Source of the DNA: Escherichia coli
Lineage (GTDB): Bacteria; Pseudomonadota; Gammaproteobacteria; Enterobacterales; Enterobacteriaceae
Strand: one strand, 5' to 3'
Length of the DNA stretch: 64,000 nucleotides
Assembly: GCF_003018255.1 (NCBI RefSeq)
Contig: NZ_CP027440.1
The position numbers and the translations under genes are program-made. Shown piece by piece: positions 59,478-64,000 of the stretch. The notes under the pieces were generated by a model. That model saw nothing but the letters and a program-made list of their open reading frames with translations. It did no database searches and was not told the origin of the DNA. Within the stretch, counting starts at the first letter, position 1, and every line of letters begins with the position of its first letter.

Positions 59478-60659
59478 ATGACTAACAGCAATCGCATCAA
59501 GCTCACATGGATTAGCTTTCTCTCCTACGCACTGACTGGTGCGTTGGTTATTGTCACCGGGATGGTGATGGGAAATATCGCCGATTATTTCAATCTGCCT
59601 GTTTCCAGTATGAGTAACACCTTCACCTTCCTCAACGCCGGCATTTTAATCTCTATCTTCCTCAACGCCTGGCTGATGGAAATCGTCCCGTTGAAAACGC
59701 AGTTACGTTTTGGCTTTCTCCTGATGGTGCTGGCGGTTGCCGGTTTGATGTTCAGCCACAGCCTGGCGCTGTTCTCGGCGGCGATGTTCATTCTCGGAGT
59801 GGTCAGCGGCATCACCATGTCGATTGGTACATTCCTGATAACACAAATGTATGAAGGGCGTCAGCGCGGTTCCCGCCTGTTATTTACCGACTCCTTCTTC
59901 AGTATGGCCGGGATGATTTTCCCAATGATCGCCGCGTTTCTACTGGCGCGCAGCATTGAGTGGTACTGGGTTTATGCCTGCATCGGGTTGGTGTATGTCG
60001 CTATTTTTATTCTGACCTTCGGCTGTGAGTTCCCGGCGCTGGGCAAACATGCGCCAAAAACGGATGCTCCGGTAGAGAAAGAAAAGTGGGGGATCGGCGT
60101 GCTGTTTCTCTCCATTGCGGCACTGTGCTACATCCTCGGTCAGTTAGGTTTTATCTCCTGGGTGCCGGAGTATGCCAAAGGCCTGGGCATGAGCCTGAAC
60201 GACGCGGGCACGCTGGTGAGTAACTTCTGGATGTCATATATGGTCGGCATGTGGGCGTTCAGCTTTATTCTTCGCTTCTTTGATTTGCAACGTATTCTGA
60301 CCGTACTGGCTGGTCTGGCTGCGATTCTGATGTACGTCTTTAACACCGGAACACCAGCACATATGGCGTGGTCAATTCTCGCTCTGGGCTTCTTCTCCAG
60401 CGCGATCTATACCACCATCATCACCCTGGGTTCACAGCAAACCAAAGTACCGTCGCCAAAACTGGTTAACTTTGTCCTGACCTGCGGGACCATCGGTACT
60501 ATGTTGACCTTTGTGGTTACCGGCCCGATTGTTGAACATAGCGGTCCGCAGGCGGCACTGCTTACAGCAAACGGTCTGTACGCTGTCGTCTTTGTGATGT
60601 GCTTCCTGTTAGGTTTCGTCAGCCGTCACCGTCAGCATAACACCCTGACCTCTCATTAA
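59478..60659 (+). CDS. tsgA: MFS-type transporter TsgA
   Basis: ORF track 393 aa; 12-TM hydrophobic profile. Confidence 0.9.
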
Positions 60660-60848
60660 TTGCTCATGCCGGGCGGCGCTATCGTCGTCCGGCCTTTTCC
60701 TCTCTTACCCTGCTACGTGCATCTATTTCTATAAACCCGTTCAATTTGTCTGTTTTTTGCACAAACATGAAATGTCAGACAATTCCGTGACTTAAGAAAA
60801 TTTATACAAATCAGCAATATACCCCTTAAGGAGTATATAAAGGTGAAT

Positions 60849-60862
60849 TTGATTTACATCAA
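60849..60862 (+). promoter_or_regulatory. FNR-binding site of the nirB promoter
   Basis: Perfect TTGAT-TTAC-ATCAA palindrome read in sequence about 60 nt upstream of nirB ATG. Confidence 0.85.
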
Positions 60863-60920
60863 TAAGCGGGGTTGCTGAATCGTTAAGGTAGGCGGTAATA
60901 GAAAAGAAATCGAGGCAAAA

Positions 60921-63464
60921 ATGAGCAAAGTCAGACTCGCAATTATCGGTAACGGTATGGTCGGCCATCGCTTTATCGAAGATCTTCTTGATAAATCTGA
61001 TGCGGCCAACTTTGATATTACCGTTTTCTGTGAAGAACCGCGCATCGCTTATGACCGCGTACACCTCTCGTCTTACTTCTCTCACCACACCGCCGAAGAG
61101 CTGTCGCTGGTGCGCGAAGGCTTCTACGAGAAACACGGCATCAAAGTTCTGGTCGGCGAACGCGCTATCACCATCAACCGTCAGGAGAAGGTGATTCACT
61201 CCAGCGCCGGGCGCACCGTTTTTTATGACAAGCTGATCATGGCGACCGGTTCCTACCCGTGGATCCCGCCAATCAAAGGTTCTGATACTCAGGACTGCTT
61301 TGTCTATCGCACCATTGAAGACCTCAACGCCATTGAATCCTGCGCCCGTCGCAGCAAACGCGGTGCCGTTGTTGGTGGCGGCCTGTTAGGTCTGGAAGCC
61401 GCTGGCGCGCTGAAAAACTTAGGTATTGAAACCCACGTTATCGAATTTGCCCCTATGCTGATGGCGGAACAGCTTGATCAGATGGGTGGCGAGCAGCTGC
61501 GTCGCAAAATCGAAAGTATGGGCGTGCGCGTTCACACCAGCAAAAACACCCTTGAGATTGTGCAGGAAGGTGTCGAAGCGCGTAAAACCATGCGTTTTGC
61601 CGACGGCAGCGAACTGGAAGTCGACTTTATCGTCTTCTCTACCGGTATCCGTCCGCGCGATAAGCTGGCAACCCAGTGTGGTCTGGACGTTGCTCCGCGT
61701 GGGGGTATCGTCATAAATGATTCCTGCCAGACTTCCGATCCGGATATCTACGCCATCGGTGAATGCGCAAGCTGGAACAACCGTGTATTTGGTCTGGTAG
61801 CACCAGGCTACAAAATGGCGCAGGTCGCCGTTGACCATATTCTTGGTAGCGAAAACGCCTTTGAAGGTGCAGACCTTAGCGCCAAGCTGAAACTGCTGGG
61901 CGTAGACGTAGGCGGTATTGGTGATGCGCACGGTCGCACGCCTGGCGCACGTAGCTACGTTTACCTCGACGAAAGCAAAGAGATCTACAAACGCCTGATT
62001 GTCAGCGAAGACAACAAAACCCTGCTCGGTGCGGTACTGGTGGGCGATACCAGCGACTACGGCAACCTGCTGCAACTGGTGCTGAACGCTATCGAACTGC
62101 CGGAAAACCCGGATTCTCTGATTCTGCCGGCGCACTCAGGTAGCGGTAAGCCGTCTATCGGTGTTGATAAACTGCCGGACAGCGCGCAAATCTGCTCCTG
62201 CTTCGACGTCACCAAAGGCGATCTGATTGCAGCTATCAACAAAGGCTGCCACACCGTTGCGGCGCTGAAAGCTGAAACCAAAGCGGGTACTGGCTGCGGT
62301 GGCTGTATCCCGCTGGTCACTCAGGTACTGAACGCGGAACTGGCGAAACAGGGCATCGAAGTTAACAACAACCTGTGCGAACACTTTGCTTATTCGCGTC
62401 AGGAACTGTTCCATTTGATCCGCGTTGAAGGCATTAAAACCTTCGAAGAACTGCTGGCGAAACACGGCAAAGGCTACGGTTGTGAAGTTTGTAAACCGAC
62501 CGTCGGTTCGCTGCTGGCCTCCTGCTGGAACGAATACATTCTGAAGCCGGAACATACTCCGCTGCAGGATTCAAACGACAACTTCCTCGCTAACATCCAG
62601 AAAGACGGCACCTACTCGGTGATCCCGCGTTCTCCGGGCGGTGAAATCACCCCGGAAGGGCTGATGGCAGTAGGTCGTATCGCGCGTGAATTTAATCTCT
62701 ACACCAAAATCACCGGCTCTCAGCGCCTGGCGATGTTTGGCGCACAGAAAGACGATCTGCCGGAAATCTGGCGTCAGCTGATTGAAGCCGGCTTCGAAAC
62801 CGGTCATGCCTATGCGAAAGCACTGCGTATGGCGAAAACCTGCGTGGGTAGCACCTGGTGCCGCTACGGCGTTGGCGACAGCGTCGGCCTCGGCGTGGAA
62901 CTGGAAAACCGCTACAAAGGCATCCGTACGCCGCACAAAATGAAGTTCGGTGTCTCTGGCTGTACCCGTGAATGTTCAGAAGCTCAGGGTAAAGACGTGG
63001 GTATCATCGCCACCGAAAAAGGCTGGAACCTGTATGTTTGCGGTAACGGCGGCATGAAACCGCGTCATGCGAATCTGTTGGCAGCGGATATCGATCGCGA
63101 AACGCTGATCAAATATCTCGACCGCTTCATGATGTTCTACATCCGTACCGCCGACAAACTGACGCGTACCGCGCCGTGGTTAGAAAACCTCGAAGGTGGC
63201 ATCGATTACCTGAAAGCGGTGATCATTGACGACAAACTGGGGCTGAACGCACATCTGGAAGAAGAGATGGCGCGCCTGCGTGAAGCGGTAGTGTGTGAGT
63301 GGACTGAAACGGTCAATACCCCGTCTGCGCAGACTCGCTTCAAACACTTCATCAACAGCGATAAGCGTGACCCGAACGTGCAGATGGTGCCAGAGCGCGA
63401 ACAGCACCGTCCGGCAACGCCGTATGAACGTATCCCGGTAACTCTGGTGGAGGACAACGCATGA
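60921..63464 (+). CDS. nirB: NADH-dependent nitrite reductase large subunit
   Basis: ORF track 847 aa; N-terminal FAD/NAD Rossmann motifs, Cys clusters for Fe-S/siroheme. Confidence 0.98.
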   Translation: MSKVRLAIIGNGMVGHRFIEDLLDKSDAANFDITVFCEEPRIAYDRVHLSSYFSHHTAEELSLVREGFYEKHGIKVLVGERAITINRQEKVIHSSAGRTVFYDKLIMATGSYPWIPPIKGSDTQDCFVYRTIEDLNAIESCARRSKRGAVVGGGLLGLEAAGALKNLGIETHVIEFAPMLMAEQLDQMGGEQLRRKIESMGVRVHTSKNTLEIVQEGVEARKTMRFADGSELEVDFIVFSTGIRPRDKLATQCGLDVAPRGGIVINDSCQTSDPDIYAIGECASWNNRVFGLVAPGYKMAQVAVDHILGSENAFEGADLSAKLKLLGVDVGGIGDAHGRTPGARSYVYLDESKEIYKRLIVSEDNKTLLGAVLVGDTSDYGNLLQLVLNAIELPENPDSLILPAHSGSGKPSIGVDKLPDSAQICSCFDVTKGDLIAAINKGCHTVAALKAETKAGTGCGGCIPLVTQVLNAELAKQGIEVNNNLCEHFAYSRQELFHLIRVEGIKTFEELLAKHGKGYGCEVCKPTVGSLLASCWNEYILKPEHTPLQDSNDNFLANIQKDGTYSVIPRSPGGEITPEGLMAVGRIAREFNLYTKITGSQRLAMFGAQKDDLPEIWRQLIEAGFETGHAYAKALRMAKTCVGSTWCRYGVGDSVGLGVELENRYKGIRTPHKMKFGVSGCTRECSEAQGKDVGIIATEKGWNLYVCGNGGMKPRHANLLAADIDRETLIKYLDRFMMFYIRTADKLTRTAPWLENLEGGIDYLKAVIIDDKLGLNAHLEEEMARLREAVVCEWTETVNTPSAQTRFKHFINSDKRDPNVQMVPEREQHRPATPYERIPVTLVEDNA

Positions 63465-63787
63465 GCCAGTGGAAAGACATCTGCAAAATCGATGACATCC
63501 TGCCTGAAACCGGCGTCTGCGCGCTGTTAGGTGACGAACAAGTAGCAATTTTCCGCCCGTATCACAGCGATCAGGTGTTTGCGATCAGCAACATCGATCC
63601 GTTCTTCGAGTCCAGCGTGCTGTCACGCGGGCTGATTGCGGAACACCAGGGCGAGCTGTGGGTCGCCAGCCCGCTGAAAAAACAGCGTTTTCGCTTAAGT
63701 GATGGCTTGTGCATGGAAGACGAACAGTTTTCCGTCAAACATTACGAAGCACGAGTGAAAGACGGCGTGGTGCAGCTGCGCGGTTAA
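63461..63787 (+). CDS. nirD: Nitrite reductase small subunit
   Basis: ORF track 108 aa; 4-nt overlap with nirB. Confidence 0.96.
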   Translation: MSQWKDICKIDDILPETGVCALLGDEQVAIFRPYHSDQVFAISNIDPFFESSVLSRGLIAEHQGELWVASPLKKQRFRLSDGLCMEDEQFSVKHYEARVKDGVVQLRG

Positions 63788-63796
63788 TGTTTTAAC

Positions 63797-63821
63797 GGGA
63801 GGCGCAATGCCTCCCCTTTTT
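63797..63821 (+). terminator. Intra-operon terminator-like hairpin between nirD and nirC
   Basis: gggaggc-gcaat-gcctccc followed by ctttttg, 10 nt after nirD stop. Confidence 0.6.
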
Positions 63822-63912
63822 GCATGGTCCTGTAATGACCTTCGGTATATTGCAGGACATTTTTTAAACTTTTTGTTTTATTTTTTTGTTTTTATTTTTT
63901 AAAGGATAATCA

Positions 63913-64000
63913 AATGTTTACAGACACTATTAATAAGTGTGCGGCTAACGCTGCGCGCATTGCACGCCTGTCGGCAAATAACCCGCTCGGCTTTTGGGTC
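63913..64000 (+). CDS. nirC: Nitrite transporter NirC, 5' end only (continues past window end)
   Basis: ATG at 63913 opens MFTDTINKCAANAARIARLSANNPLGFWV... to the window edge; preceded by AAGGA SD. Confidence 0.8.

What the first reader, a model, noticed from the sequence alone, without database searches (positions are those of the whole stretch)
63788..63912. Terminator-like hairpin between nirD and nirC inside the nir operon
A GC hairpin followed by a T-run (63797-63821) lies directly after nirD, and a second T-rich stretch (ttttttaaactttttgttttatttttttgtttttatttttt) precedes nirC. This may set the nirBD to nirC expression ratio by partial termination.
Basis: inference. Interest (0 to 1): 0.15.

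Follow-up and report, generated by a model that had tools for sequence, protein, structure and literature searches.

The report
Known internal terminator after nirD
The hairpin and T-rich stretch between nirD and nirC are real and match a partial transcription stop already characterised in Salmonella, so this is a correct but largely known observation.

Summary
A G+C-rich hairpin (63797-63815, -14.7 kcal/mol) followed by CUUUUUG lies 9 nt after the nirD stop. The 41-nt tract at 63860-63900 is the most T-rich stretch of the whole 64-kb window.

Wang et al. 2020 (PMC7038943) showed for the orthologous Salmonella hairpin that deleting it lowers nirBD transcripts and raises nirC-cysG transcripts. 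Across 41 distinct enterobacterial sequences the stem covaries (92% paired, compensatory changes in 6 of 8 pairs). In E. coli MG1655, published coverage falls 24-fold across this junction, and still 6-fold when Rho is inhibited.

- A second hairpin (63827-63858, -17.6 kcal/mol, followed by AUUUUUU). It occurs only in Escherichia and looks like an insertion into an ancestral U-tract.
- A 15-nt site (63901-63915) over the nirC ribosome-binding site that is perfectly complementary to the small RNA NarS.
- Length variation of the T-tract between E. coli strains (intergenic region 124 to 155 nt).

Verdict: an already known kind of element at an already studied locus, so low interest. The only new details are the Escherichia-specific second hairpin, the variable U-tract and the Rho-sensitive share of the step.

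The parts
63461..63787 (+). nirD coding sequence (stop codon TAA at 63785-63787)
   Evidence: ORF list. Annotated as nirD in all matching E. coli genomes.
63797..63815 (+). Hairpin 1: GGGAGGC-GCAAU-GCCUCCC, the conserved operon-internal terminator stem-loop
   Evidence: -14.7 kcal/mol, z = -4.1. Covariation in 41 distinct sequences: 92.4% of cells paired, 6 of 8 pairs with compensatory change, 0 of 500 shuffles reach this. Orthologous to the Salmonella element tested by Wang et al. 2020.
63816..63822 (+). Short U-run after hairpin 1 (CUUUUUG)
   Evidence: It is shorter than in Salmonella (U6, then GUAUUUUUUU) and in Klebsiella (U8).
63827..63858 (+). Hairpin 2: GUCCUGUAAU...AUUGCAGGAC with an apical ACC-UUC-GGU. 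Found only in Escherichia and single-copy in the genome.
   Evidence: -17.6 kcal/mol, z = -6.0. One place per genome in 5,425 E. coli genomes. Lies in a gap relative to genera with short intergenic regions. The E. albertii version keeps the stem through a matched A/U insertion and a U.G to C-G change.
63860..63900 (+). U-rich tract (33 T of 41), built of T4-7 runs separated by purines. Predicted mostly unpaired and variable in length between strains.
   Evidence: Strain alleles put the intergenic region at 124-127, 140, 149 and 155 nt. In Salmonella the U-rich region holds RNase E-type 5' ends and is proposed as an Hfq site.
63901..63915 (+). NarS pairing site over the nirC Shine-Dalgarno sequence (AAGGA at 63902-63906) and the start codon
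   Evidence: 15-nt perfect complementarity to nt 144-158 of the annotated E. coli narS gene (b4813). It matches the -12 to +1 footprint reported in Salmonella. The AAGGATAATCA motif is conserved in most loci that have nirC, with variants such as GGGATAACA or AAGGAAACC in others.
63914..64000 (+). Start of nirC (the coding sequence runs off the window end). The published Rho termination region coordinate maps to about 63942.
   Evidence: MG1655 nirC starts at 3,497,003. Adams et al. 2021 supplementary file 2.

Best explanation
The nirD-nirC spacer is a composite control region inside the nirBDC-cysG mRNA. Hairpin 1 with its U-run is a leaky intrinsic terminator. It ends a share of transcripts after nirD and also caps the 3' end of nirBD RNA against exonucleases. 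Transcripts that read through carry hairpin 2, a long unpaired U-rich leader and the nirC ribosome-binding site. In that leader the RNA is probably cut by RNase E and bound by Hfq. The small RNA NarS pairs with the ribosome-binding site to shut off nirC alone. Rho removes further transcripts near the start of nirC. The net result is much less nirC than nirBD.

Status of each step:
- Shown here: the structures, their conservation and covariation, and the NarS complementarity.
- Shown by others in Salmonella: the effect of deleting the terminator, the RNase E dependence and the NarS repression.
- Shown by others in E. coli: the coverage step and its partial relief when Rho is inhibited.
- Inferred: that hairpin 1 itself terminates in E. 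coli, and any role of hairpin 2. My guess for hairpin 2 is a second weak terminator or a 3'-end barrier.
For: - Hairpin 1 plus its U-run sit 9 nt after the nirD stop.
- The hairpin keeps the same position in Escherichia, Salmonella, Citrobacter, Klebsiella, Leclercia, Kosakonia, Siccibacter and Atlantibacter. Compensatory changes occur in 6 of 8 pairs, and slid-partner controls pair only 52-64% of cells against 92% for the real structure.
- Salmonella experiments (PMC7038943): nirBD (2.8 kb) and nirC-cysG (2.5 kb) RNA species were detected. Terminator deletion lowers nirBD and raises nirC-cysG. Processing depends on RNase E. Deleting the terminator and U-track cuts NarS repression from about 30-fold to about 5-fold.
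- E. coli NarS is perfectly complementary to window 63901-63915 over 15 nt. About 3e-5 such matches are expected by chance for sequences of these lengths (my own calculation).
- MG1655 coverage drops from 586 to 24 across the junction. With bicyclomycin it drops from 920 to 149, giving a Rho score of 3.95 and p = 6e-12.
- The U-tract is predicted mostly single-stranded (centroid structure).
Against: - No curated Term-seq 3' end is listed at nirD in three aerobic conditions (Adams et al. 2021 supplementary files 1 and 3). Precise termination at hairpin 1 is therefore not documented in E. coli, where the operon is poorly expressed aerobically.
- The E. coli U-run is only 5 U. It is interrupted by hairpin 2 and scores lower than the Salmonella and Klebsiella tails. 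Hairpin 1 may be a weak terminator here.
- The coverage step comes from one aerobic experiment with 800-nt windows. It could partly reflect differential RNA decay rather than termination.
- Roughly a four-fold part of the step is Rho-sensitive and therefore not intrinsic.
- The Salmonella spacer is organised differently, with an ERIC-like insertion and no hairpin 2. Transfer of the Salmonella results to E. coli is by orthology of hairpin 1 only.
Confidence: 0.75

Rival explanations
1. The hairpins do not terminate transcription. They act only as RNA stability elements. RNase E cuts the full-length mRNA in the U-rich spacer, and the hairpins block 3'-5' exonucleases. nirBD RNA then outlives nirC RNA, as happens with REP stabilisers in other operons.
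For: Wang et al. state that the stem-loop may stabilise cleaved nirBD fragments. They show RNase E-dependent processing and processed (monophosphate) 5' ends for nirC. No Term-seq 3' end is listed at nirD in E. coli. In other genera the same spacer holds REP- or ERIC-like palindromes. The E. coli U-run is short.
Against: Hairpin 1 is always followed by a U-run in the genera where it is conserved. A pure exonuclease barrier would not need that. Deleting the terminator in Salmonella raised the downstream nirC-cysG transcript, as expected for read-through. The two roles do not exclude each other.
Confidence: 0.15
2. The expression step between nirD and nirC in E. coli is mainly Rho-dependent polarity. 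The long untranslated spacer, a poorly translated nirC and NarS repression let Rho load and terminate early in nirC. The hairpins are secondary.
For: Adams et al. 2021 list a Rho termination region 29 nt into nirC with a Rho score of 3.95 and p = 6e-12. The 126-nt spacer is ribosome-free.
Against: With Rho inhibited, a 6-fold drop remains (920 to 149). The spacer is U-rich and poor in C, which by general knowledge of rut sites is unlike a typical one. Covariation shows selection on the hairpin 1 structure.
Confidence: 0.08
3. The spacer encodes something of its own: a small Phe-rich peptide (ORF 63807-63902, possibly the historical 'nirE'), an independent small RNA related to sroE, or a promoter for nirC in the AT-rich tract.
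For: A 31-aa ORF exists. There is a weak full-length match to Rfam sroE (22.3 bits, E = 0.005-0.017). The tract is very AT-rich.
Against: - The ORF starts at an ATG in the loop of hairpin 1. It changes frame or length with T-tract alleles (31, 33, 38 and 41 aa) and is cut to 6-9 aa in E. albertii and in strain 4/1-1. Salmonella has ACG instead of ATG in the loop.
- The sroE score is far below the gathering score of 51, and the similarity is limited to a two-hairpin layout.
- No sigma-70-like promoter was found in 60000-64000.
- Salmonella nirC 5' ends are processed, not primary.
Confidence: 0.02

Closest known systems
Intra-operonic nirD terminator of the Salmonella nirBDC-cysG operon (Wang, Chao, Matera, Gao, Vogel, NAR 2020; PMC7038943)
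   Same: Same operon and same position directly after the nirD stop. The stem-loop is nearly identical (one loop base differs from S. enterica subsp. arizonae and diarizonae). The energy is similar (-14.7 against the reported -14.9 kcal/mol). A U-run follows, then a U-rich region, and the same NarS site lies over the nirC Shine-Dalgarno sequence.
   Different: The E. coli spacer is 125-126 nt. It has an extra Escherichia-specific hairpin that splits the U-tract, and the long U-rich tract abuts the ribosome-binding site. In the Salmonella-type loci the spacer is about 194 nt, with an ERIC-like insertion between the U-tract and the ribosome-binding site, so the NarS site is about 200 nt from the U-track. 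None of the Salmonella experiments has been repeated in E. coli as far as I could find.
Operon-internal attenuating terminators and stabilising palindromes in general (for example REP elements between cistrons)
   Same: A stable stem-loop between cistrons gives more of the upstream than of the downstream product.
   Different: Hairpin 1 has a U-run and is single-copy and locus-specific. REP elements are multi-copy and lack U-runs. Hairpin 2 is also single-copy.
sroE RNA (Rfam RF00371), a two-hairpin RNA
   Same: Two consecutive stem-loops, the second followed by a U-run. The first stem, GGGaaGCG..CGCuuCCC, resembles hairpin 1.
   Different: The score is 22.3 bits against a gathering score of 51, so this is not a member. 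It is a different locus.

Membership tests
Rho-independent (intrinsic) terminator | G+C-rich stem-loop on the transcribed strand | tested here: met
   7-8 bp stem with 6 G-C pairs, -14.7 kcal/mol, z = -4.1.
Rho-independent (intrinsic) terminator | U-run immediately 3' of the stem | tested here: met
   CUUUUUG at 63816-63822, i.e. five U after one C. It is short relative to orthologues.
Rho-independent (intrinsic) terminator | Structure maintained in evolution (covariation) | tested here: met
   92.4% of cells paired, 6 of 8 pairs with compensatory changes, 0 of 500 shuffles as high, slid controls 52-64%.
Rho-independent (intrinsic) terminator | RNA 3' ends or termination observed at the U-run | not testable with these tools
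   Published E. coli Term-seq tables (aerobic conditions) list no 3' end at nirD. A 24-fold coverage drop across the junction is recorded. The Salmonella orthologue has northern-blot and deletion evidence.
Salmonella nirD intra-operonic terminator (Wang et al. 2020) | Stem-loop plus U-track directly after the nirD stop within nirBDC-cysG | tested here: met
   Gene order nirB-nirD-spacer-nirC. The hairpin starts 9 nt after the stop.
Salmonella nirD intra-operonic terminator (Wang et al. 2020) | Sequence orthology of the hairpin | tested here: met
   GGGAGGCGCAAUGCCUCCC against GGGAGGCGCAACGCCUCCC in the S. enterica subsp. arizonae and diarizonae loci L011 and L030. The figure in the paper that shows its sequence could not be read. 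The reported energy (-14.9 kcal/mol) and the TTAATT stop-codon context match L011.
Salmonella nirD intra-operonic terminator (Wang et al. 2020) | Deletion lowers nirBD RNA, raises nirC-cysG RNA and weakens NarS control | not testable with these tools
   Needs genetics in E. coli.
NarS sRNA target site | Base-pairing with the NarS seed over the nirC Shine-Dalgarno sequence and start codon | tested here: met
   15 consecutive Watson-Crick pairs between window 63901-63915 and nt 144-158 of E. coli narS (b4813). This agrees with the -12 to +1 footprint.
sroE RNA (Rfam RF00371) | Score at or above the Rfam gathering threshold | tested here: not met
   22.3 bits against 51.
REP/BIME or another dispersed palindromic repeat (for hairpin 2) | Many copies per genome | tested here: not met
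   Median of one place per genome in 5,425 E. coli genomes, using the sensitive blastn mode at E <= 1.
Small protein gene (ORF 63807-63902) | Reading frame conserved among relatives | tested here: not met
   The frame and length change with T-tract alleles, and the ORF is cut to 6-9 aa in E. albertii and strain 4/1-1. The ATG is absent in Salmonella and Citrobacter.

The most novel reading that the evidence does not exclude
In the Escherichia lineage, a 30-40 nt palindrome (hairpin 2) inserted into the ancestral long U-tail of the nirD terminator. This weakened hairpin 1 (only 5 U remain). It created a tandem arrangement in which the decision between nirBD-only and full-length RNA is shared among two weak intrinsic terminators, Rho, and NarS/Hfq. 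In addition, the slippage-prone U-tract next to the nirC ribosome-binding site (intergenic region 124 to 155 nt between strains) would act as a heritable tuning knob for nitrite uptake between E. coli lineages.
Probability: 0.12. Interest if true: 0.4.

Novelty: already known. Interest (0 to 1): 0.15.

Why it matters
The element explains how one promoter yields much nitrite reductase (NirBD) but little nitrite importer (NirC). That balance limits nitrite toxicity during nitrate respiration. The principle and the locus are already published for Salmonella, so the value here is confirmatory. The hairpin is conserved and covaries across many enterobacterial genera, and E. coli public data show the predicted expression step. 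The only new leads are the Escherichia-specific second hairpin, the strain-variable U-tract next to the nirC ribosome-binding site, and the Rho-sensitive share of the step. All three are modest and untested.

Tried and rejected
- **Rfam scans of the spacer.** Only sub-threshold chance-level matches were found (sroE 22 of 51 bits, IsrM 18 of 376, rli48 15 of 100). Rejected as family members.
- **The 31-aa ORF starting in the loop of hairpin 1.** Rejected as a gene because its frame is not conserved. I recall from memory that older E. coli literature named an ORF 'nirE' here, but I could not retrieve those papers.
- **Hairpin 2 as a dispersed repeat.** Rejected: it is single-copy.
- **A promoter in the AT-rich tract.** No sigma-70-like site was found.
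- **A d'Aubenton-Carafa-style terminator score, with the formula taken from memory.** I used it only to compare U-tails. Absolute values are unreliable, because the independent tsgA terminator also scores negative.
- **RNAduplex on full-length NarS against the spacer.** The output was a meaningless long duplex. I used the exact-complement search instead.
- **Other 3'-end data sets.** The TERMITe supplements do not mention nirD or nirC. Supplements for Dar & Sorek 2018, the 3'-UTR valves paper, the 3'-seq comparison preprint and Wang et al. 2020 are not held.
- **Predicted pairing between the U-tract and the Shine-Dalgarno region (MFE structures).** It is weak and absent from the centroid, so I did not pursue it.

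Full report
**Locus.** The end of the window is the E. coli ppiA-tsgA-nirB-nirD-nirC region. nirB is 60921-63464 and nirD is 63461-63787. nirC starts at 63914 and runs off the window end. The same 540 bases occur once in 5,425 of 5,426 complete E. coli genomes and are annotated nirB/nirD/nirC there. The spacer is 63788-63913, which is 126 nt here and 125 nt in K-12.

**Checking the observation.** Hairpin 1 (GGGAGGC-GCAAU-GCCUCCC, 63797-63815) followed by CUUUUUG is present. Three tools recover it: the terminator scan, the fold (-14.7 kcal/mol, z = -4.1, no shuffle as stable) and the inverted-repeat search. The simple terminator pattern is common (8 found in 4 kb against 4.4 expected), so it carries little weight alone. 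The T-rich stretch (63860-63900, 33 T of 41) is the most extreme T- or A-rich 41-mer of the whole 64-kb window. No other region reaches even 28 of 41. Tandem Repeats Finder reads it as about 2.3 copies of a 14-nt unit.

There were three omissions:
- A second hairpin lies at 63827-63858 (GUCCUGUAAU...AUUGCAGGAC with an apical ACC-UUC-GGU). It is more stable than the first (-17.6 kcal/mol, z = -6.0) and is followed by AUUUUUU.
- The 15 nt at 63901-63915 (AAAGGAUAAUCAAAU) cover the nirC Shine-Dalgarno sequence and the first two bases of the start codon. They are perfectly complementary to nt 144-158 of the RefSeq-annotated E. coli narS gene (b4813).
- The T-tract varies in length between strains, as described below.

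**Comparative evidence.** A search with NirD returned 80 loci from enterobacterial genomes. I located the nirD stop and the nirC start in each.
- A hairpin of the same design sits directly after the nirD stop in Escherichia, Salmonella, Citrobacter, Klebsiella, Leclercia, Silvania, Kosakonia, Phytobacter, Siccibacter, Atlantibacter and others.
- On a gapless alignment of 41 distinct sequences, 92.4% of cells form a standard pair and 6 of 8 pairs show compensatory double changes. No shuffle of 500 reaches these values, and sliding the 3' partner by 1-3 columns drops pairing to 52-64%. The alignment was anchored on the predicted loop, which favours the structure somewhat, but the compensatory changes (A-U to G-C, G-C to C-G) are plain in the raw sequences.
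- The rest of the spacer is highly variable (67 to 402 nt). Some genera have hairpin 1, a U-rich run and the ribosome-binding site only (K. grimontii 67 nt, Huaxiibacter 68 nt, S. diarizonae 81 nt).
- Citrobacter carries REP-like palindromes. S. arizonae, several Citrobacter, Leclercia and Phytobacter carry an element that I recognise from memory as ERIC-like.
- A T-rich run and the motif AAGGATAATCA before the ATG recur in most loci that have nirC.
- Hairpin 2 exists only in Escherichia. In an alignment with the short spacers it falls in a gap between the U-run of hairpin 1 and the U-rich tract, so it looks like an insertion into an ancestral long U-tail.
- Hairpin 2 is single-copy in E. coli genomes. 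In E. albertii-type sequences the apical part is unrelated, but the basal stem is kept through a matched A/U insertion and a U.G to C-G change (-16.3 kcal/mol, z = -4.1). One Escherichia lineage (L015) has a mismatch and a weaker hairpin.

**Variation within E. coli.** A spread sample of 60 of 5,426 records shows spans equivalent to spacers of 124-127 nt, with the window allele (T7 in the fourth run) in roughly a quarter of them. Rare alleles carry a 14-nt duplication (O178:H19 strain 2012C-4431, 140 nt) or (TTTTTA)n expansions (VG38-53E1 at 149 nt; possum strain A4 at 155 nt, with 9.8 copies). Point variation in hairpin 2 is concentrated in its apical part.

**Published experiments.** Wang et al. 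2020 (PMC7038943) studied this spacer in Salmonella.
- nirBDC-cysG is transcribed as one mRNA, and nirBD (2.8 kb) and nirC-cysG (2.5 kb) species accumulate.
- nirC 5' ends are processed, lie in the U-rich region and depend on RNase E.
- A stem-loop of -14.9 kcal/mol with a U-track after nirD 'resembling an intrinsic terminator' was deleted. nirBD RNA fell and nirC-cysG RNA rose.
- Unexpectedly, NarS repression of nirC dropped from about 30-fold to about 5-fold. The authors suggest that the U-track binds Hfq.
- NarS, cut from the narK 3' UTR, pairs with the nirC Shine-Dalgarno region (footprint -12 to +1).

For E. coli I found no dedicated study. Adams et al. 2021 (PMC7815308), supplementary file 2, lists a Rho termination region at MG1655 3,497,031 (+). 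That position is 29 nt into nirC and corresponds to about window 63942; I verified the coordinates. About a four-fold part of it is Rho-sensitive and about six-fold remains without Rho. The same paper's curated Term-seq tables contain no 3' end at nirD. Those cultures were aerobic, where the nir promoter is weak, so this absence is not strong evidence.

**Mechanism.** The best-supported reading is a composite control region.
1. Hairpin 1 is a leaky intrinsic terminator and 3'-end cap for nirBD RNA.
2. The read-through RNA carries an unpaired U-rich leader (centroid structure). It is a substrate for RNase E and a likely Hfq site.
3. NarS pairs with the ribosome-binding site to silence nirC alone.
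4. Rho adds termination early in nirC.

In E. coli the U-run of hairpin 1 is shorter than in Salmonella or Klebsiella because hairpin 2 interrupts the tail. Hairpin 1 may therefore be weaker here, and hairpin 2 with its own U-run may act as a second terminator or exonuclease barrier. That last point is inference only.

**Rivals.** A pure RNA-stability role is compatible with much of the data, but it does not explain the conserved U-run or the increase of downstream RNA on deletion. Rho-only polarity is contradicted by the six-fold step that persists under bicyclomycin. A peptide gene, an sroE-like small RNA and a promoter are each rejected on conservation, score and scan results.

**Verdict.** Interest is low. 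The Escherichia-specific hairpin, the variable U-tract and the Rho-sensitive component are minor leads.

Noticed in passing
window 63808-63812 (loop of hairpin 1); alignment A2 columns 12-16: The loop GCAAY is more conserved across genera than the stem. The stem switches between GGGAGGC, GGGGGY and GCGGGGG while the loop stays the same. This is unusual for a plain terminator, and I have no explanation for it.
   Followed up: partly
window about 63765, minus strand (MG1655 3,496,855): Adams et al. 2021 supplementary file 2 also lists a minus-strand Rho termination region antisense to the 3' end of nirD (262 to 12 reads; 405 to 66 with bicyclomycin). This implies antisense transcription across nirC and the spacer. 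The only minus-strand promoter-like site in nirC is at chance level.
   Followed up: partly
L033-L039, L044-L049, L052-L061, L064, L079, about 1830-1990: Enterobacter, Kluyvera, Pseudocitrobacter, Trabulsiella and related genomes lack nirC; nirD is followed by cysG. Most of these spacers share a long conserved hairpin (AACAGCAGGAA...TTCCTGCTGTT) that has no Rfam match.
   Followed up: partly
L011, L012, L016, L017, L021, L041, L062, L070 spacers; L091 2338-2521: An ERIC-like element (ATCCCCAGGAGC...GTGACTGGGGTGAGCG, recognised from memory) fills the nirD-nirC spacer in S. arizonae, several Citrobacter, Leclercia and Phytobacter. A copy in the opposite orientation lies inside the annotated E. 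coli narS RNA.
   Followed up: no
L010, L013, L014, L018, L019, L022, L023, L027-L029, L031 spacers: Citrobacter spacers carry one to three REP/BIME-like palindromes (GCCTGATAAGCGTAGCGCCATCAGGC, GCCGGATGGCGGC). They sit at the position where Escherichia has hairpin 2.
   Followed up: no
window 63807-63902: A 31-aa Phe-rich ORF starts at the ATG in the loop of hairpin 1. Its length and frame change with the T-tract alleles, and it is truncated in E. albertii. It is not a gene.
   Followed up: yes
window 63937-63958: A stable hairpin lies in nirC codons 8-15 (GUGUGCGGC-UAAC-GCUGCGCGC), next to the published Rho-region coordinate.
   Followed up: no
window 60668-60693: A strong terminator-like hairpin (11 pairs, 9 of them G-C) lies after tsgA and upstream of the nirB promoter region.
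   Followed up: no
L074, L075, L082, L084 spacers: In Cedecea and Buttiauxella, hairpin 1 is replaced by one to three copies of a different palindrome (CCCTCTCCC...GGGAGAGGG), which looks like another dispersed repeat family.
   Followed up: no
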